From Octopus vulgaris (taxonomy: Eukaryota): a DNA stretch of 64,000 bases. The position numbers and the translations under genes are program-made. The stretch is taken from positions 13,702,001-13,766,000 of the forward strand of contig OX597839.1 of the NCBI GenBank assembly GCA_951406725.2, in the 5' to 3' direction. The notes below the pieces were generated by a model. The model had not been told where the DNA came from, did not search any database, and saw only the letters and a program-made list of their open reading frames with translations. Shown piece after piece: positions 3,580 to 64,000 of the stretch. Within the stretch, counting starts at the first letter, position 1, and each line of letters starts with the position of its first letter.

Positions 3580-3884
3580 TAGCAGTATCGCCCGGCATTG
3601 CTTGGGTTTGTTTCGACCTTTTAGAATTGGAATTTTTGAAAAGTAAAAATTTTGCATTGTGTAGCTTGTTGTTCTCTTTAAGTGAACATTTTTCTTGTTC
3701 AAAATACACCAAAAAATGGCGACACAGCAGTCAAAAAATTGTAAAAATTAGGGATTTTCATAGAAAAAAAGCACCTTTTTGATGTAAATAATTTTTGGTG
3801 TTAACATGGTCTGATTTGAATTTTTTCTTCTACGGAAGAAAGAGCAAGCCTTCTTCTATCATACTCTCAATTTTGGTCAACTTG
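3579..3884 (-). mobile_element. Helitron 3' portion (different subfamily)
   Basis: Same CTAG plus hairpin terminus ('ctagcagtatcgcccggcattgcttgggtttg') with a different internal sequence. Confidence 0.7.
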
Positions 3885-13938: not shown

Positions 13939-14184
13939 ATTTCTTTACTGCCCACAAGGGGCTAAACACAGAGGGGACAAACAAAGACAGACAGACGGAT
14001 TAAGTCGATTATATCGACCCCAGTGCGTAACTGGTACTTATTTAATCGACCACGAAAGGATGAAAGGCAAAGTCGCCCTCGGCGGAATTTGAACTCGGAA
14101 CGTAGCGGCAGACGAAATACCTATTTCTTTACTACCCACAAGAGCGGACAAACAAGGACAGACAAACGGATTAAGTCGATTATA
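13939..14184 (-). mobile_element. SINE family C, two Tx1-tailed units in tandem
   Basis: Junction 'aaagaaat-aggtatttcgtctgccgctacg' on the minus strand. Confidence 0.85.
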
Positions 14185-14438
14185 TATAATATATATATAC
14201 ACACACACAAAGAATAGGGAAAGAGACAAAAAAGAGATAGATAGATAGATGGATACAGAGAGAGAGAGAGGGGGATGAAATACAGAGACAGAGAGAGAGA
14301 GAAAGAGAGGATGAAAGACAGAGAGAGAGAGACAAAGAGAGGAAGAAATACAGAGATACAGAGAGAGAGAGAAAAACGAATGACAAAACTAGATGATCAC
14401 GTAATGAAAAAAAAAGTCCAGTCCGGCATAGTTTCGGT

Positions 14439-15303
14439 TGTAGTAGCACAGATTTCCGTCGATTTCCGTAAAAAACTTTTATTTTTTTACATAAGTAATG
14501 AGAGCGAAAGAGACTAAGAGGAAGCGATTTTACGACGAGAAGGTTTCACTTTGAAGTCGGCCTGTGTGTGTTTGATGGGGTGTGGGAGACAGACAGTATG
14601 TTGTGTAAGTGAAGTGCTTCTGTTAGTGTGTGCGAAGAGACAGACATACATATACACATACACCGAGTACATACATACATACATACACACACACACATAC
14701 ATAGATACATACACACACACACATACACACATACATACACACACACATACTTACACACACACACACACACACATACATGCAGACATACATATACACATAC
14801 ATCGAGTAAAAAATTACACTGAATCGACCATACATACATACACACATACATACATACACATACACACATACATAGATACATACACACACACACATACATG
14901 CAGACATACATATACACATACACCGAGTAAAAAATTACGATGAATCGGCCATACATACATACATACACACACACATACTTACACACACACACATACATAG
15001 ATACATGCATACATACATATACACATACATGCATACATACATATACACATACACCGAGTAAAAAATCAGTTATCTCTCTCTTTCACACATTACTCTCTCT
15101 GTCTCTTCGCACACACTAACAGAAGCACTTCACTTACACAACATACTGTCTGTCTCCCACACCCCATCAAACACACACAGGCCGATTTCAAAGTGAAACC
15201 TTCTCGTCATAAAATCGCTTCCTCTTAGTCTCTTTCGCTCTCATTACTTATGTAAAAAAATAAAAGTTTTTTACGGAAATCGACGGAAATCTGCGCTACG
15301 ACA
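14439..15303. repeat. Inverted repeat with ~205-bp near-identical arms (14439-14643 / 15099-15303) around a tandem spacer
   Basis: The arms are reverse complements with few mismatches. The spacer holds ~3 units of ~125-135 bp marked by 'catatacacatacaccgagtaaaaaat'. Confidence 0.9.
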
Positions 15304-15720
15304 TGCGAAACTTCGCCAAAAGTCCTTACTTCAGTGTCAGCGTGTTTCAACTCCTCTTCTCATTACAATGTGTCGTTCTCGCTTCCATTCCTGACTGTCG
15401 TCTCTTGACACCAGACATAGCGATAATGTTGTTGTTGTTGTTAGTGAAAGACACTGATGTTAGGTCTCACCTTTTCTCTCCCTCTCTCCTCTCTTTCTTC
15501 CTAACTCCTCTCTTTCTCTCATACATCTGTGTTTCTGTCGATATTCACTTAACTCTCTCTACCTCTCTTTCCTCCCCTTCACTCTCATATATCTTTATTT
15601 CTGTCTATATTCACTATAACCCTCCTCCTCCTCGTTCTCCCCCCAATACTTCTATCTCTTACCCACTGATTAGTCTTCTCTCTCTCTCCCTCTCCTATAC
15701 ACTCTGATGAATTCTCTCTC

Positions 15721-28459: not shown

Positions 28460-28793
28460 CTCACCCCACTTCGGTCATGACTGACCGTGGGATTGCACCT
28501 AGAAAGTTAACCTCTCAGGCACAAGTCTGGGCAAGGTTGTTTCTGGAAGACCAGCAGTCACCCATGTATACCTGTCTCCCCTCTCCACGCCACAAGTGTT
28601 ATCCAAGGGAAAGGCAACAGCAGGTACAGCTAGGCACCTGTGATGTCGCAACTCATTTCTACCGCTGAGTGAACTGGAGCAACGTGAAATAAAGTGTCTT
28701 GCTCAAGAACACAACACGCAGCCCAGTCCAGGATTCAAACTCACAACCTCAAGATCGTAAGCTCAACGCTCTAACCACTGAGCCATGCACCTT
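28460..28793 (-). mobile_element. SINE family D, full length
   Basis: tRNA-like head on the minus strand 'tggctcagtggttagagcgttgagcttacgatc..gtttgaatcctgg'; homologous to 36572. Confidence 0.85.
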
Positions 28794-32975: not shown

Positions 32976-33142
32976 TCCGATCAAAATATAAACGACTATA
33001 AAGCTGATCCTAACGAAGATATAACTGAAATCTTTGATTTGCATAATATGGTAAATTTATGGTTTCATTTTTTTATTTCAATGCTGTTACAGAATTGTAT
33101 TAACATTTTCTTATATAAAAACACTTCAAAATATCTTTCAAT

Positions 33143-33713
33143 GAGCAAGCTGGCAGACTCATTAGCATACCTGGCAAAAGTACCTAATAGCATCTCATCC
33201 ACCTCGACGTTCTGAGTTCAAATTGTGTTCAGGTCAACTTTACCTTTTATGCTTTTGGGGTCAATAAAATAAGTACCAGTCGAACACTGGGGTTGATATA
33301 ATTGACTTAATCCGTTTGTCTGTCCTTGTTTGTCCCCTCTGTGTTTAGCCCCTTGTGGGTAGTAAAGAAATAGGTATTTTGTCTGCCGCCATGTACTGAG
33401 TTCAAATTCTGCCGAGGTCGACTTTACCTTTCAGGGTCGATAAATTAAGTACCAGTTACGCACTGGGGTTGATATAATCGACTTAATCCGTTGGTCTGTC
33501 CTTGTTTGTCCCCTCTGTGTTTAGCCCCTTGTGGATAATAAAGAAATAGGTATCTTGTCAGTCTTTACGTTCTGAGTTCAAATTCCACCGATGTCAGCTT
33601 TGCCTTTCATCCTTTCAGGGTCGATAAATTAAGTACCAGTTGCATACTGGGGTCAATCTAATCAACTGCCATCCTGCAAAAAAAATCTCAGGTCTTGTGC
33701 CTAGAGTAGATAA
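33143..33713 (+). mobile_element. SINE family C trimer (tail1-tail1-tail2)
   Basis: Two 'aaagaaat-aggtat' junctions at ~33371 and ~33547. Confidence 0.85.
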
Positions 33714-34124
33714 GTATAATAATAAGGGTTTCAAATTTTGCCACGAGGACAGCCATTCTGGAGAGAGGGGATAAGCCAATTTCATCTATATATATATACA
33801 TAGCCAAATGGATTGACCCTGAAGATGTTGCACCAAAAACTGTGCTAGGTTGCACCTGCAACTGCCTATAATTTGTGATGTGGAGACATGCACAGGTCAT
33901 AAAGACCATAATCATATGCTGTATAAAATTGTAAAATAAGCGGAAATACATTTTGAGGATGAACAAGTCTCCATGTTCTATTATTGCTAATAAACACACA
34001 CACACACAAACATACCTATATATGCACCCACACATAGGCATGCATGTGTTTGTGTGTGTTTGTGTATATCTATCTATCTATCTGTCTGTCTGTCTATCTA
34101 TTTGTGTGTATATATATATATATG

Positions 34125-41565: not shown

Positions 41566-42305
41566 ATTGGTTTCAAATCTCTGGTACAAGACCAGCTATG
41601 TCAGGAAAGTGGGTAAATCGATTGAATCGATCCCAATGTTCAACTGGTACGTATTTTATCGCACCCGAAAGGGCAAAAGGCAAAATCGACCGCGGCGGAA
41701 TTTGAACTCAGAACATAGCGGCAGACGAAATACCTATTTCTTTATTGCCCACAAGGGGCTAAACACAGAGAGGACAAACAAGGACAGACAAACGGATTAA
41801 GTCGATTATATCGACCCCGAAGGGATGAAAGGCAAAGTGGACCTCGGCGGAATTTGAACTCAGAACGTAGCGGCAGACGAAATTTCTTTACTACCCACAA
41901 GGGGCTAAACACAGAGAGGACAAACGGATTAAGTCGATTATATCGACCCTAGTGCGTAACTGGTACTTATTTAATCGACCCTGAAAGGATGTAAGGCAAA
42001 GTCGACCTTGGCGGAATTTGAACTCAGAACATAACGACAGACGAAATACCGCTAAGCATTTCGCCCGGCGTGCTAACGTTTCTACCAGCTCGACCCGCTT
42101 CAGACTAAATATAATGGTTTGAAATTTTAGCACAAGACCTGTGATTTTGAGGGAGTGGGGTCAGTCGATTAGATCAACTCCAGTGTACGTCCGAAAAGAT
42201 GAATGGCAAAGAGGACCTCGGCGGAGTATGAACTCAAAATGTAGACAGACGAAATGCAACTAAGCATTTTGCCCGGCGTGCTAACGATCCTGCCAGCTCG
42301 CCGCC
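41566..42305 (-). mobile_element. SINE family C array (4 units)
   Basis: Minus-strand order: tail2 unit, then head-tail1, tail1, tail2. Confidence 0.85.
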
Positions 42306-42359
42306 TTAAAACAATAGATATAGTGAAAGATAAATAGTAGACATTACACAAACACATAG

Positions 42360-44759: not shown

Positions 44760-44910
44760 GAACACCCGTTCACTATCCAGGAGAACCCAGAGGTGCCTCA
44801 ACCTCAACGCATGTCTGCGCATCATTAACCAAGGCATCCCTAAACCTCCCTTTAAAGGCTTTTGACAGCAGACAGAGCGTTTCACAAGTGGCGACCTGCC
44901 CTTCCACAAA
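44760..44910 (-). pseudogene. Tx1-clade ORF2 fragment
   Basis: WKGRSPLVKRSVCCQKPLKGGLGMPWLMMRRHALRLRHLW; paralogous to 46497-46625. Confidence 0.8.
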
Positions 44911-45096
44911 AATTTTCAATGAATACTTTTCAGATACCTTTCAAAAAATACCTTTCCGACATAATCGTGTATATTACGATTGTATCAGAATTCAATATGA
45001 AAAAAAAAAAAAAGAAAAGAAAGAAAAACAGCTTGGTTCGTACCCATACATACCGACACACATCACAAAAGGAATTTGGAGATTTCGGAAAAATTC

Positions 45097-45472
45097 TTTT
45101 CTTTTCTGCTCTAGGTATAAGGCCCGAAATTTGGGGGGAGTGAGCCAGTCGATTACATCGACCCCAGTGCGTAACTGGTACTTATATAATCGACCCCGAA
45201 AGGATGAAAGGCAAAGTTGACCTCGGCGGAATTTGAACTCAGAACGTAGCGTCAGACGAAACACCGCTAAGCATTTTGCGCGGCGTACTAACGTTTCTTA
45301 TTTCTTTATTCCCCACAAGGAGCTAAACATAGAGGGGACAGACAAAGCAATTAAGTTGATTATATCGACCCCAGTGCGTAACTGGTACTTAATTTATCGA
45401 CTCCGAAAGGATGAAAGGCAAAGTCGACCTCGGTGGAATTTGAACTCAGAACGTAACGGCAGACGAAATACC
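45097..45472 (-). mobile_element. SINE family C, 3' portion (tail1 unit plus tail2 unit) of the copy interrupted by Tx1
   Basis: Starts at the TSD 'ggtatttcgtctgccgttac' immediately after the LINE 3' end. Confidence 0.85.
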
Positions 45473-45709
45473 AATTTCATTATTGCCCACCGGGGGCCAA
45501 ACATAGAAATGGACAGAACAGCTGATGGAATCAGTGATGCGATATGATTTTACATATAATGTGACTTTAAAAATTTACATACAATATATAAAAAATCGAA
45601 TGGAATTAACAATACAAAGACAATACAAATGAAGCGATGATCAGGCCACGCTCCGACCCCACAAGCCCCGATCTACTGCTGGTACCTTTTTTTTCTTTTT
45701 TTTTCCGGT

Positions 45710-46628
45710 CTATTCACACGGTTTCTTGCACGAACAACACTCGTGCAACATGCTTCCATCTCTTTCGGAACTATACTCCGACAGACACCTCTTCTCCAGC
45801 CACAGCTTCCTTTTCAAATGGAAAGAAAAAAAATGATCGTAAATTGTGACCAGAGATAAAGTTGCCTGTCTTAATTCCTTTTATCCTAATCTTCCATACT
45901 GCCTCTTTCGCTATTGCTACAACCGTGAGAAAACAATTCTTACCTTCGTTCGTTAAAACTCCTGGTGGGTCAATTTTTATAATTGACTCAGTCGACAGCT
46001 GTACTCTTCCTTCGCCGGACAACAGGTGTTCAGCATAAGCCCACATTTCAGTTATCTCCGGACACTGAACAATAGCGTGAGGGACGGTTTCCCTGCCCCC
46101 CCCCCCCGCATCTTGGACAGGTCAGCGACTGACGTTTACCATGTCTTGCGAGCTTATCCCAAATGGGCAAGGAATCTCTGTAGCATTGCCAGATTAAGGA
46201 CTTTTGGAAGTTGTCCAACGTTCTCAACCCGAATGTACAGTGAAACAGGCTGTCCAGTTGAATAAATCCGAGACCTAGAGTCGACCACAGGCCATCGTCG
46301 CATTCAGACTCTACCAATCCACTATATAAAATCCGCGTGGAACCCCCCACCGCTGGCGTTGCCCGAGCGCCGGAATAGCAAGAGGGCCTTACGGCACTCT
46401 TTATATCACTCACTCGACCTCGGTCTACGAGAACACTAGGCTTCCAGTTCGCAAAAACTTTTGAACTCGGGGAACATTTGTCTGGCTAGCGGAGACCACA
46501 CCCGTTCACTCTCCAGGAGAATCCAGAGGTGCCTCAACCTCAAAGCATGTCTGCGCATCATTAACCAAGGCATCCGTAAACCTCTCTTTAAAGGGTTTTG
46601 ACAGCAGACAGAGCGCTTCACAAAAAGC
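45710..46628 (-). pseudogene. Tx1 ORF2 C-terminal remnant with CCHC (zf-RVT-like) motif
   Basis: LDNFQKSLIWQCYRDSLPIWDKLARHG..TCPRC (frameshift) ETVPHAIVQCPEITEMWAYAEHLLS..AIAKEAVWKIR; stops and frameshifts. Confidence 0.8.
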
Positions 46629-46770
46629 GAAAGAGCTGTCTCTCCAACCTGATCAACCACGAATCCGGACAGGGCACGACGGTCAGGCGGTAGGTAATGA
46701 CCGATGCGATAAACACATTTCAGGGATAGCCACCACCAAGACCAGGTCTTGACTATTGCAGCCACCCTGC

Positions 46771-47457
46771 TCAATACCTCTGTCCAGTTCTTCTCTGCTG
46801 GAGGTTAATACTATCTTCCCTGTTTGCCAGGACCGCCGCCATCAAGCACATAGGGTTTACTCCGGGTGGATTTCTAGGTATTCTCACTTTTGATGTTCTC
46901 ATTCCCATGTAAATTGAGATTAACAGAGTGTCTTCCGACTCTAAAGATTTTATAGAGTGTTTTTGTGCCGTTTCTGCATTCTTGAACCTCACCACGATGG
47001 TTCCAAGCTTCTTCCCTCTGGCTAGATATGTAATGTCCTGCCAGATGGGTTTTAGACATTTTTCAATTTTTTGTTCACATATTTTATCAATTTTACGTGC
47101 TTTTAAGCAAAATGTTTTAAAAATAATAAATTTCTTTTTTTCCTCCGTTAATTCTTCTGGTATTTCCACTTTTACCATTCCATCTCGTTCTTTTATCATA
47201 TCTTTATATTTTAAATATTCTTTTATGTCGGTTGACAGCTGCCGCGTTCCACCACCAGCCGCTGACGCAAAACTTTTGCTTTCTTCATTTTGGATGGTCC
47301 TTTTTTCTGTCTTCCTATTGGTGTTCGTAACTCTTGGTAATGTTGGAAATTCGCTTTCCGACACATCAGAAACGTCAAAAATTAAGCTTTCTATTTTCTT
47401 GGCTTCTCTTTCAATTAATGCTTCGTCTCCCGACGAAGAACACGAACTTTTCGGCAT
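46771..47457 (-). CDS. Tx1-like ORF1 (228 aa, probably C-terminally damaged)
   Basis: Complex non-repetitive ORF with SFASAA and an RRM-like 'GTIVVRF..IYMGMRTSKVRI..PPGV' region, upstream of the ORF2 remnant on the same strand. Confidence 0.7.
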   Translation of the reverse strand: MPKSSCSSSGDEALIEREAKKIESLIFDVSDVSESEFPTLPRVTNTNRKTEKRTIQNEESKSFASAAGGGTRQLSTDIKEYLKYKDMIKERDGMVKVEIPEELTEEKKKFIIFKTFCLKARKIDKICEQKIEKCLKPIWQDITYLARGKKLGTIVVRFKNAETAQKHSIKSLESEDTLLISIYMGMRTSKVRIPRNPPGVNPMCLMAAVLANREDSINLQQRRTGQRY

Positions 47458-47618
47458 CTTGCCGGCAATTAATATTTTCCCCCACAGGGAAAAACCACAG
47501 ATAGCTTTCGAAAGAAAACTATACTACAATTTTTTCAACAATAAGTCCAACAATAGGCACAACAAGAAATATAACAGTTAATAGAAACTTATGAACACAC
47601 TCCAACAATAAATTTTCA

Positions 47619-47686
47619 GTAACAGACGTACGATATACCACAATGCATTTCGCTCGGCGTGCTAACGTTTCTGTCAACTCGCTGCC
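47619..47686 (-). mobile_element. SINE family C 5' head, upstream of the Tx1 insertion
   Basis: Minus strand 'ggcagcgagttgacagaaacgttagcacgccgagcgaaatgcattgtggtatatcgtacgtctgttac'. Confidence 0.85.
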
Positions 47687-47804
47687 TTGATTTCGGAAAA
47701 AAATTCTAATGCATGTCAGTATATGTGCGAGCCCGCAATTTTTTTTTTTTTTTTCATGCCAAATTCCGATATAACTGTAGTGTATGACATCTGAAAGGCA
47801 TTTG

Positions 47805-53221: not shown

Positions 53222-53460
53222 CACTAATCAGATGGTAATTCTTCGAAGGTCACCGATAAAACAGAACATTTGATGCTTTCCCCGCAAAATTAACAGCTCT
53301 AACCTCACTCCTCCAGATTCCCGAAGCCATAAATCTCAACGACACCATTATACAGCATAATAACCATCTCACAATCAACATAATTAACAACACGGGGATA
53401 ATGAGTGGTTGAAGACGATGAAGCGCCATTGAGAATCTGTTATATTACTTAGAATAATAA

Positions 53461-54304
53461 GGCGGCGAGCTGGCAGAAACGTTAGCACGCCGGGCGAAAT
53501 GCTTAGCAGTATTTCGTCTGCCGCTACGTTCTGAGTTCAAATTCCGCCGAGGTTGATTTTGCCTTTCATCCTTTCGGGGTCAATTAAATAAGTACCAGTT
53601 ACGCACTGGGGTCGATATAATCGACTTAATCCGTTTGTCTGTCTTTGTTTGCCCTCTCTGTGTTTAGCTATTTGTGGGTAGTAAAGAAATAGGTATTTCG
53701 TCTGTCTTTACGTTCTGAGTTCAAATTTCGCTAAGGTCGATTTTGCTTTTCATCCTTTCAGGGTAGATAAATTAAGTACCAGTTGTGTACTGGAGTCGAT
53801 CTGATCGATTGACCCTCTCCCGCAAAATTTCGGACCTTGTGCCTAGTGTAGAAAGCAATATATAATAGCACACTCAAGGCGGCGAGCTGGCAGAAACGTT
53901 AGCACGCCGGGCGAAATGCTTAGCGGTATTTCGTCTGCCGCTACGTTCCGAGTTCAAATTCCGCCGAGGTCAACTTTGCCTTTCATCCTATCGGGGTCGT
54001 TAAATTAAGTACCAGTAACGCACTGGGGTCGATATAATCGATTTAATCCGTTTGTCTGTCCTTGTTTGTTCTCTCTGTGTTTAACCCCTTGTGGGCAATG
54101 AAGAAATAAGAAACGTTAGTACGCCGGGCGAAATGCTTAGCAGTATTTCGACTGTCTTTACGTTCAGAGTTCAAATTCCGCCGAGGTTGATTTTATCTTT
54201 CATCCTTTCGGGGTCGATAAATTAAGTACCAGTTGCGTACTGGGGTCGATCTAATCGATTGGCCCCTTCTCCCAAAATTTCGGGCCTGTGTCTAGAATAG
54301 AAAA
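53461..54304 (+). mobile_element. SINE family C array: two (tail1+tail2) dimers
   Basis: Heads at 53461 and 53878; rejoin points 'aaagaaat-aggtatttcg' (~53691) and 'aagaaat-aagaaacgttag' (~54108). Confidence 0.9.
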
Positions 54305-54380
54305 GTACAAACGCACAAACAATGTCATATATATATATATATATATATATATCTTGTCCCAGTTTGTATTTTTTTACTTT

Positions 54381-62524: not shown

Positions 62525-63533
62525 AAAGTTTTTTACGACGAATATAAGACCTATATCCAAGTAGCAGAAAGATCGCCCAAAAGTGTATATAGATATTTAA
62601 ATGTATTTATATATTCATCTATACACAGATGTATGTATAATGTGTGTGTATATATTTCCATAGCGGTAACCTTTCACTCCATACAAAGTTTTTTAGGACG
62701 AATATAAGATCTAAAGTATATACAAGTAGCAGAAAGATCGCCCAAAAGTGTATATAGATATTTAAATGTATTTATATATTCATCTATACACAGATGTATG
62801 TATAATGTGTGTGTATATATTTCCATAGCGGTAACCTTTCACTCCATACAAAGTTTTTTAGGACGAATATAAGATCTAAAGTATATACAAGTAGCAGAAA
62901 GATCGCCCAAAAGTGTATATAGATATTTAAATGTATTTATATATTCATCTATACACAGATGTATGTATAATGTGTGTGTATATATTTCCATAGCGGTAAC
63001 CTTTCACTCCATACAAAGTTTTTTAGGACGAATATAAGATCTAAAGTATATACAAGTAGCAGAAAGATTGCCCAAAAGTGTATATAGATATTTAAATGTA
63101 TTTATATATTCATCTATGCACACATGTATGTATAACGTGTGTATATATATTTCCATAGAGGTAACCATTCACTCCATACAGAGTTTTTTAGGACGAAAAT
63201 AAGATCTAAAGTTATCTCTAAGAAAAAGAAAGATCGCCCAAAAGTGTATATAGATATTTAAATGTATTTATATATTCATCTATACACAGATGTATGTATA
63301 ATGTGTGTGTATATATTTCCATAGAGGTAACCTTTCACTCCATACAAAGTTTTTTTTAGGACGAATATAACATCTAAAGTTATCTCTAAGAAAAAGAAAG
63401 ATCGCCTAAAAGTGTATATAGATATTTAAATGTATTTATATATTCATCTATACACACATGTATGTATAATGTGCGTGTATATATTTCCATAGAGGTAACC
63501 ATTCAATCCATACAAAGTTTTTTAGGACGAAAA
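62525..63533. repeat. 165-168-bp tandem array, ~6 copies
   Basis: Anchor 'gatcgcc' at 62571, 62736, 62901, 63066 (variant gattgcc), 63232 and 63400. Confidence 0.97.
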
Positions 63534-63535
63534 TA

Positions 63536-64000
63536 TTTATATATAAAAGAAAGGTTGTGTGTCTGTCTACTCCGATCTAGATTCCTAACTACTCCCACAT
63601 TTTGCAATGCAGTTTAACCAAAACCGGGTATCTTATAGTCGTGATTCATATCAAGCCCTTCTGGGTATTAGCGCGCGTCTACGATGAGTCTATGATTTTA
63701 CAAATAATTTACCATCATTTTTTTTCCATTTTAATGCATATTTTTTAAAATAAAGGGAAGTAACTCTCAAACTTCACACCAATATGCGTGCTCATATGCG
63801 ACGTAACATCACATCAGCAGCATTTCCTCACACCCTCCTTGCACTTGGCGAAGGCAAAATACCAGGGGATGAAAATGGTAATATTGCCTTCGATTCCATT
63901 TGTACCATTGTTAAGACGCCTTCTGATTTCAGATATGCAGTGTTCCCAGATCTACAAGCTAATTATCAGAATATGGATTGGATTGGCAAAAAGGCTATAC
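63536..64000 (+). mobile_element. Helitron 5' end joined to RepHel helicase sequence (runs off the window)
   Basis: 63536-63742 is the reverse complement of ~612-819, followed by helicase codons. Confidence 0.85.
63760..63999 (+). pseudogene. PIF1-family (Helitron RepHel) helicase fragment
   Basis: VTLKLHTNMRAHMRRNITSAAFPHTLLALGEGKIP..AVFPDLQANYQNMDWIGKR matches PIF1 motif IV 'L..NMR..F...LL.IG.G' and the segment before RAIL. Missing from the ORF track because it has no stop. Confidence 0.8.

What the first reader, a model, noticed from the sequence alone, without database searches (positions are those of the whole stretch)
45081..47706. Tx1 LINE inserted inside the SINE that carries its own 3' tail: a self-targeting LINE-SINE pair
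Seen: on the minus strand the order is SINE-C head (47686-47619), a 2.15-kb Tx1-clade LINE, then the rest of SINE C. An imperfect ~20-bp TSD brackets the LINE (gtaacggcagacgaaatacc at 45453-45472, gtaacagacgtacgatatacc at 47619-47639), between the SINE's A and B boxes. The LINE 3' end (ctatgtttggcccccggtgggcaataatgaaat) closely matches SINE-C tail 1 (ctgtgtttagccccttgtgggcaataaagaaat). Known: Tx1-clade elements are often sequence-specific (Tx1L in Tx1D, Keno in U2 snRNA genes, Dewa in tRNA arrays, Mutsu in 5S), and SINEs borrow LINE tails. Inference: this LINE targets a SINE that it also mobilises, so the passenger multiplies the driver's target sites. I do not know of this loop being described.
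Basis: partly seen in the sequence, partly recalled or inferred. Interest (0 to 1): 0.9.

Follow-up and report, generated by a model that had tools for sequence, protein, structure and literature searches.

The report
LINE homing into its passenger SINE
In this octopus-type genome a LINE retrotransposon lineage almost always sits at one exact base inside a very abundant SINE, and a SINE family with a LINE-like tail piles up at that same base tens of thousands of times, so the LINE likely spreads the very repeat it lands in.

Summary
Confirmed genome-wide, with corrections. Of 82 non-redundant LINE 3' ends read, 73 abut SINE position 52 plus SINE body by script, 5 more show the site motif, 2 are unreadable and 2 lie elsewhere; such sites are 6e-5 of positions. 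28 of 30 5' ends follow SINE sequence. Young copies are 99% alike while their host SINEs are 86-89% alike, so insertions were independent. The tail-1 SINE joins the same base at 28,463 exact junctions, and its insertions elsewhere keep the GGTA core (26 of 83; background 0.26%).

Corrections: the '20-bp TSD' is not a duplication, since its left copy is carried by the LINE (8 of 8 exact matches precede a LINE). The window copy is a 5-kb element lacking about 2.9 kb, including endonuclease and RT. The tail does not single out the driver (sister families with other targets match as well). Tail-2 SINEs are hosts too. The LINE tail was not found at the SINE's second site (19).

The shared target and matching ages favour trans-mobilisation by this lineage (inferred, about 0.65). 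It extends the Tx1-Mar/SINEU pattern; no description was found in ten searches, and Repbase was not searchable.

The parts
47689..47707 (-). Left target-site duplication of the outermost host SINE
   Evidence: Matches 45097-45081 apart from the length of a T run
47645..47686 (-). Host SINE head, positions 1 to about 42 (A-box-like segment; box label recalled)
   Evidence: Aligns to full SINE copies at 53459 and 53874
47619..47644 (-).
   Evidence: Variant occurs 8 times in the genome, always before a LINE 5' end; 10 of 30 5' junctions carry it
46805..47618 (-). LINE 5' UTR and N-terminal part of ORF1 (ATG near 47457)
   Evidence: 86% identical to nt 8-792 of full-length L031; open frame
46795..46804 (-). 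Junction of a ~2.9-kb internal deletion removing the rest of ORF1, the endonuclease and the RT
   Evidence: L031 nt 792 joined to nt 3665
45714..46804 (-). Frameshifted C-terminal ORF2 remnant including the zinc-binding region
   Evidence: tblastn to intact ORF2 P0054, aa about 757-1134; zf-RVT in relatives
45473..45713 (-). LINE 3' UTR ending in the conserved stem-loop tail, no poly(A)
   Evidence: 335 candidates in the genome; tail fold and alignment to SINE tail 1
45299..45472 (-). Tail-1 SINE body from position 52 (the target site) to its tail
45098..45298 (-). Second SINE unit from position 19, ending in tail 2; the tail-1 SINE sits in it at site 19
45081..45097 (-). Right target-site duplication of the outermost host SINE

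Best explanation
This is a decayed copy of a LINE lineage that inserts at one base (position 52) of an abundant SINE head, and the same lineage likely also copies the tail-1 SINE, which shares its 3' tail and lands at the same base. Shown: the fixed insertion site, independent insertions, the protein domains in intact relatives, and the shared tail and target. Inferred mechanism: target-primed reverse transcription, with the APE endonuclease nicking just before GGTATTT (CGTATTT for the young subfamily) and the second nick about 10-17 nt downstream. The LINE RNA begins with target-like bases, so its cDNA would anneal to the upstream flank and give a seamless 5' join. SINE RNA would be copied in trans through the shared stem-loop tail with looser choice: about half of insertions go into SINE heads, building arrays, and half go to GGTA/NRTA sites elsewhere, creating new targets. 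The loop is leaky, because tail-2 SINEs, moved by some other driver, supply many targets too.
For: LINE 3' ends: 73 of 82 at site 52 with SINE body by script, plus L024 by eye, plus 4 with the motif then other sequence. 5' ends: 28 of 30 after a SINE head or tail-1 unit. Independence: young LINE 3' ends 98.8% alike, downstream SINE 88.8%; heads 86% versus LINE 99%; different host TSDs around 6 of 10 young composites (by eye); hosts of both tail types. Three subfamilies with this target form one clade (SH-aLRT 99, quick tree) while sisters hit other repeats. Domains: Exo_endo_phos, RVT_1, zf-RVT in ORF2; zf-CCHC in ORF1. SINE: 28,463 exact tail-to-site-52 junctions; 15 of 40 tail-1 ends in random stretches plus window at site 52; off-array ends start GGTA in 26 of 83 (background 0.26%) and NRTA in 52 of 83 (6.4%); real 9-17-bp TSDs begin with that core, including a full SINE inserted at site 52 in L078. 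Ages: A 91%, B 93%, SINE units 89-90%.
Against: Tail identity to the SINE is 0.79-0.82 for the three SINE-targeting subfamilies but 0.78-0.85 for sister families with other targets (last 35 nt). The LINE tail never abuts site 19, which the SINE uses (20 of 190 ends). The SINE's tail variant predicts its site (T-type 64:3, C-type 9:14 for site 52:19, p 4e-8) and its off-array start (p 0.007 and 0.0008), which one enzyme alone does not explain. The young LINE uses C at 52 in 19 of 20 copies, the SINE in 1 of the first 100 listed. 22 of 29 truncated old copies have no head upstream and no TSD. No empty allele and no RNA evidence were obtained.
Confidence: 0.65

Rival explanations
1. The LINE is site-specific, but the SINE is moved by one or more sister Tx1-like families and finds its own head through its RNA: transcripts from arrays read past the tail into GGTATTT or AGAAAC and prime at matching DNA. 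The LINE is then only a co-tenant of the site.
For: The tail is conserved across the whole clade. Tail variant is coupled to site and to off-array start. The LINE tail is absent at site 19. The SINE ends in AAATA, as some sister families do, while the SINE-targeting LINEs end in AAATT. PMC4494074 (discussion) notes that co-transcription with the target can strengthen specificity.
Against: None of the 16 sister copies examined has a GGTA-type target. The SINE's nick falls at the same base as the LINE's. Both LINE off-target sites (L012, L027) also have the NRTA core. Ages of A and B match the SINE burst.
Confidence: 0.25
2. SINE arrays arose mainly by unequal crossover or slippage, and SINE insertion is not targeted.
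For: Adjacent units are slightly more alike than random pairs (92.3% versus 89.5%), and 3 of 33 adjacent pairs are at least 97% identical. Regular long arrays exist (listing). Recombination is the published reading of SINE arrays in bivalves and squamates (PMC11481361, PMC10702118, passages).
Against: 30 of 33 adjacent pairs are below 97%. The first tail-to-site junction cannot arise by crossover. Solitary insertions have TSDs starting with the same core. Arrays mix site-52 and site-19 units and two tails.
Confidence: 0.06
3. LINE plus SINE body form one composite that multiplied as a unit, so there is no targeting.
For: 22 of 29 truncated old copies lack the head upstream. Some 5' target-like bases are carried by the LINE. 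Young copies are mostly followed by one SINE subtype.
Against: Flanking SINE parts are about ten times more diverged than the young LINE. Hosts have different tails. No outer TSD was found around the 22 headless copies. The favoured subtype is itself a family of at least 18,448 copies. Kilobase deletions are common in old copies, while 11 of 11 young copies whose 5' junction was fetched keep the head.
Confidence: 0.04

Closest known systems
Tx1-Mar LINEs and SINEU in crocodilians (Kojima 2015, PMC4494074; parts 1-4 of 5 read)
   Same: A Tx1-clade LINE group and SINEs share a target inside another repeat; two hot spots; tandem SINE insertions; shared target used as the argument for trans-mobilisation; RNA-gene-derived 5' heads on some LINEs.
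   Different: There the target is a third element (Mariner-N4_AMi) and no LINE shares the SINEU-1 3' end. Here the target is the SINE itself, the SINE carries a LINE-type tail, and the scale is tens of thousands of junctions against about 7,700 and 1,600 copies.
Tx1L in Tx1D (Xenopus), Keno in U2 genes, Kibi/Koshi in microsatellites (as cited in PMC4494074; the Tx1L paper itself was not held)
   Same: APE-type LINE with sequence-specific insertion into a multicopy target.
   Different: The targets are a DNA transposon, an RNA gene or simple repeats, none of which the LINE is thought to amplify.
R2 elements in 28S rRNA genes (PMC5035012, passages; 5' homology joining recalled)
   Same: Target-derived sequence at element ends that replaces part of the target; strict first-strand nick with variable second nick.
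   Different: R2 uses a restriction-like endonuclease and a host gene as target.
Octopus tRNA-CORE/OR-type SINEs (OR2 named in PMC4758252 and PMC5804259, passages; Ohshima and Okada 1994 not seen)
   Same: Abundant SINEs of octopus genomes; resemblance to this SINE is recalled, not tested.
   Different: No reference sequence was available; no target preference is mentioned in the passages seen or in PMC13282606.

Membership tests
Tx1 clade (L1 group) LINE | ORF2 with N-terminal APE endonuclease, RT and C-terminal zinc-binding region | tested here: met
   Pfam PF03372, PF00078, PF13966 above cut-off in relative L169; best solved-structure sequence match is human L1 ORF2. The window copy itself has lost endonuclease and RT.
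Tx1 clade (L1 group) LINE | ORF1 with CCHC zinc knuckle (feature recalled) | tested here: met
   zf-CCHC above cut-off in L161 and L165; the motif is also visible in L031 and L032.
Tx1 clade (L1 group) LINE | RT phylogeny places it with reference Tx1 families rather than L1 | tested here: inconclusive
   The quick tree held no curated Tx1L, Keno or L1 reference. Nearest named relative is an Argonauta protein; the two 'Transposon TX1'-named coral proteins fall in another branch. Whole-protein score is higher to one of them (323 bits) than to human L1 ORF2 (220 bits).
Target-specific non-LTR element (criterion in PMC4494074: over 20% of flanks of one type) | Independent copies at one position of one repeat | tested here: met
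   At least 73 of 82 3' ends and 28 of 30 5' ends; independence.
Target-specific non-LTR element | Endonuclease cleaves the target in vitro | not testable with these tools
   Needs a cleavage assay.
LINE-SINE partner pair | Shared 3' tail | tested here: met
   About 45-50 nt shared, above all 1000 shuffles; but equally shared with sister families.
LINE-SINE partner pair | Tail identifies this LINE family uniquely | tested here: not met
   0.79-0.82 for the SINE-targeting subfamilies versus 0.78-0.85 for the others.
LINE-SINE partner pair | Shared target signature and overlapping activity period | tested here: met
   met for subfamilies A and B and site 52, not for subfamily C or site 19.
tRNA-derived SINE | tRNA-like head with A and B boxes | tested here: inconclusive
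   Box-like motifs seen by eye (labels recalled); ARAGORN found no tRNA in the window and Rfam gave no tRNA match on two full copies.
Octopus OR2 / CORE-SINE | Sequence match to the published consensus | not testable with these tools

The most novel reading that the evidence does not exclude
A self-feeding LINE-SINE system with a target race: the LINE lineage amplified the SINE that is its own landing pad, the SINE filled those sites with arrays of itself, a SINE subfamily with an altered site (at least 18,448 copies) escaped self-insertion, and the youngest LINE subfamily, still with open 1134-aa ORF2 frames, shifted its specificity to that free variant.
Probability: 0.35. Interest if true: 0.82.

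Novelty: new variant of a known kind. Interest (0 to 1): 0.63.

Why it matters
Known target-specific LINEs use targets they do not make. A LINE whose passenger is also its target has a supply of harmless sites that grows with its own activity. That would help explain why SINEs expanded so far in octopus genomes, and it shows that SINE tandem arrays can be built by targeted insertion, not only by recombination. The same genome holds closely related intact families (RT about 78% identical) with different targets, and two subfamilies that differ by one or two target bases. This is a natural series for mapping how APE endonucleases change specificity, and for separating enzyme from RNA contributions to site choice. 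It also warns that automated consensus libraries will fuse these SINE units and LINE ends.

Tried and rejected
Empty-site test: contigs of four public runs laid on young insertion L251. Joints skipping the LINE were many but short-sided and explained by ordinary SINE copies, so no verdict; depth was not used as copy number. No RNA holder was listed, which says nothing on expression.

A true 20-bp TSD: rejected. Target being a real tRNA gene: none of the 82 ends read is followed by one by alignment to the SINE; ARAGORN was run on the window only. A hairpin at the target: the 71-nt head folds no better than shuffles (z -0.53). 3' read-through of ~20 SINE bases by the young LINE, suggested: largely explained by a real SINE subfamily with that site and by the truncated copy L162, though 4 of 20 tail-2-like hosts remain. 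Pfam on the window's own ORF pieces found nothing significant. Whole-window repeat finding was swamped by microsatellites. The careful tree did not finish; only the quick tree is cited. Searches of earlier findings by place and by sequence were empty. One search timed out and was rerun; the last block failed and was rerun.

Full report
OBSERVATION. On the minus strand the window holds a SINE head (from 47686), a 2146-nt LINE piece (47618-45473), a SINE body from position 52 ending in tail 1 (45472-45299), and a second SINE unit from position 19 ending in tail 2 (45298-about 45098). Positions refer to the full natural copy at window 53874-54108. A 17-19-bp duplication brackets the whole composite and belongs to the outermost host SINE. 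The likely order is: tail-2 SINE first, tail-1 SINE into its site 19, LINE into site 52 (inferred). The genome is 2.8 Gb in 227 contigs. The nearest named RT relative is from Argonauta, so I call it octopus-type.

THE LINE. Relatives are about 5.0 kb (L031) to 5.35 kb. The window copy joins nt 792 to nt 3665 of L031 and so lacks the end of ORF1, the endonuclease and the RT. Relatives have a zf-CCHC ORF1 and an Exo_endo_phos / RVT_1 / zf-RVT ORF2; three young copies have open 1134-aa frames. This is L1-group architecture. The Tx1 label fits but was not proven by phylogeny: the quick tree had no curated references.

TARGETING BY THE LINE. I read 3' flanks from three searches in which the flank was not part of the query: 30 loci of 335 candidates, 30 of 68 exact tail matches and 30 of 355 candidates for an older subfamily. 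After dropping 5 overlaps, 2 local duplicates and 1 SINE with a LINE-like tail, 82 remain. By script 73 abut position 52 followed by SINE body. L024 does so by eye. L019, L021 and L116 have the site motif and then the 5' end of another LINE subfamily; L236 has the motif and then other DNA. L017 lost the junction but resumes in the SINE, and L248 runs into a gap. Only L012 and L027 are elsewhere, both with their own TSD and an NRTA core. Such sites are 48 of 797,280 strand positions in 40 random stretches. Of 30 5' ends (109 candidates), 18 follow a head, 10 follow a tail-1 unit plus the site, and 2 do neither. These samples favour the best-preserved copies.

INDEPENDENCE. Three subfamilies share the site: A (91% pairwise), B (the window's, 93%) and C (99%). 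They form one clade (SH-aLRT 99, quick tree). In C the last 250 nt of LINE are 98.8% alike but the next SINE bases 88.8% (21 copies), and heads 86% (10 copies). Six of ten full composites show different host TSDs by eye. Hosts are of both tail types: A 8 tail 1 and 20 tail-2-like of 30; B 13 and 10 of 30; C 14 and 4 of 20; random intact sites 25 and 18 of 49. So the LINE entered pre-existing SINEs and, for A and B, without preferring the family that carries its tail. One loose end: 22 of 29 truncated copies from the older sets have neither a head upstream nor a TSD. Later deletions are the likely cause, since 6 of 7 old copies with both ends have internal deletions and 11 of 11 young copies with a fetched 5' junction keep the head (one more lay outside the stretch).

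THE TSD. The window's left copy is not a duplication of its right copy. The variant occurs 8 times in the genome, always directly before a LINE 5' end, behind heads of different subtypes. The LINE therefore carries target-like bases at its 5' end that replace the left flank. True duplications are about 10-16 bp.

THE SINE. Tail 1 has 54,946 exact matches; a slightly shorter tail joined to site 52 has 28,463 (the patterns differ, so this is not a strict ratio). In random stretches plus the window, 15 of 40 tail-1 ends are at site 52, 4 at site 19 and 21 elsewhere. Over all loci held, the 83 ends outside arrays start with GGTA in 26 cases (background 0.26%) and NRTA in 52 (6.4%); without (TA)n starts, 45 of 76. 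TSDs of 9-17 bp begin with that core, so it is target sequence. Adjacent array units average 92% identity, with 3 of 33 at 97% or more, against 89.5% for unrelated units. Recombination explains some long arrays, not the pattern.

IS THIS LINE THE DRIVER? The tail is LINE-derived at clade level, but sister families with intact ORF2 share it and insert elsewhere: into ORF1 or the 3' UTR of other copies of the clade, into two unidentified repeats, or at varied sites (targets assigned by eye from 16 copies). Tail identity to the SINE is 0.78-0.85 for all ten groups, so the tail alone does not name the partner. The shared nick site, the shared core and the age match of A and B with the SINE do point to this lineage. 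Three results do not fit one enzyme alone. The LINE tail is never found at site 19. The SINE tail variant predicts the site (64:3 versus 9:14, p 4e-8). And subfamily C uses a C-at-52 site in 19 of 20 copies, while the SINE does so in 1 of the first 100 listed junctions, although that variant has 18,448 exact copies against 22,823 for the usual one. All 30 such SINEs read end in tail 1, and 13 of them sit at site 52 or 19 themselves. So the youngest LINE targets the tail-sharing SINE most cleanly but is too young to have driven the burst. RNA read-through guiding the SINE is the main rival or complement.

MECHANISM. Shown: site, independence, domains, shared tail and core. Inferred from established non-LTR biology: target-primed reverse transcription, endonuclease-set first nick, homology-assisted 5' join, trans-mobilisation through the tail stem-loop. 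Probability about 0.95 for LINE specificity and 0.65 for the whole.

COMPARISON AND NOVELTY. Kojima 2015 (PMC4494074, parts 1-4 of 5 read) describes Tx1-Mar and SINEU sharing a Mariner target, and cites Tx1L in Tx1D. There the target is a third element. Ten full-text searches returned no paper describing a LINE that targets its own SINE, or target specificity in octopus repeats. PMC13282606 (parts 1-2 of 3 read, supplement searched) lists 13 recently active L1-Tx1 families and a joint SINE and LINE expansion, with no word on targets. Passages only were seen of PMC4758252, PMC8967140, PMC5035012, PMC11481361, PMC5804259 and PMC10702118. Not seen: Repbase and Dfam entries, Ohshima and Okada 1994, Kojima and Fujiwara 2004, Christensen 2000, Albertin 2015; any could hold a partial description. 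Unchecked notes of this scan report LINEs at fixed SINE sites in other genomes from two or three copies, so SINE targeting may recur; they are leads, not support.

VERDICT. A new variant of target-specific Tx1-like systems. The driver-passenger loop is probable but leaky and untested. Interest 0.63.

Noticed in passing
window 44762-44912 (minus): Isolated ~150-nt ORF2 fragment of the same LINE family (98% to L031, 94% to window 46498-46623), about 190 nt downstream of the composite.
   Followed up: no
window 53459-54310, 33140-33714, 41579-42307, 13939-14185: Further SINE-in-SINE arrays with tail-1 units joined at site 52 or site 19.
   Followed up: yes
L201-L219; G000 C22, C27, C30, C58 rows: Radiation of very young sister families (RT about 78% identical) with many open 1130-1134-aa ORF2 frames, head-to-tail arrays with ~5.28-kb period, and different targets, including ORF1 of other copies of the clade (L207, L208, L210, L211, L217) and two unidentified repeats.
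   Followed up: partly
L019/L045, L021/L041, L116: A further LINE subfamily (5' part about 66% identical) begins right after 13 nt of the same target, giving LINE-in-front-of-LINE tandems.
   Followed up: partly
L159-L170, L215, L216: The young subfamily has a different 5' UTR and ORF1 (about 65% identity) on an ORF2 92% identical to the window's subfamily, suggesting a 5' module swap. Its endonuclease reads GDSN where sisters read GDFN or GDLN.
   Followed up: partly
L171-L200: SINE subfamily with an altered site 52 (18,448 exact copies); all 30 read end in tail 1.
   Followed up: partly
L010 (about 2128) and L107: Tail-1 SINE inserted at other GGTA-starting sites of SINEs, one on the antisense strand with a 13-bp TSD.
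   Followed up: no
window 62552-63680: Tandem repeat with 165-bp period, first copies 97-100% identical.
   Followed up: no
window 14425-14644 and 15098-15317: 220-nt inverted repeat pair, 96% complementary, 453 nt apart (MITE-like).
   Followed up: no
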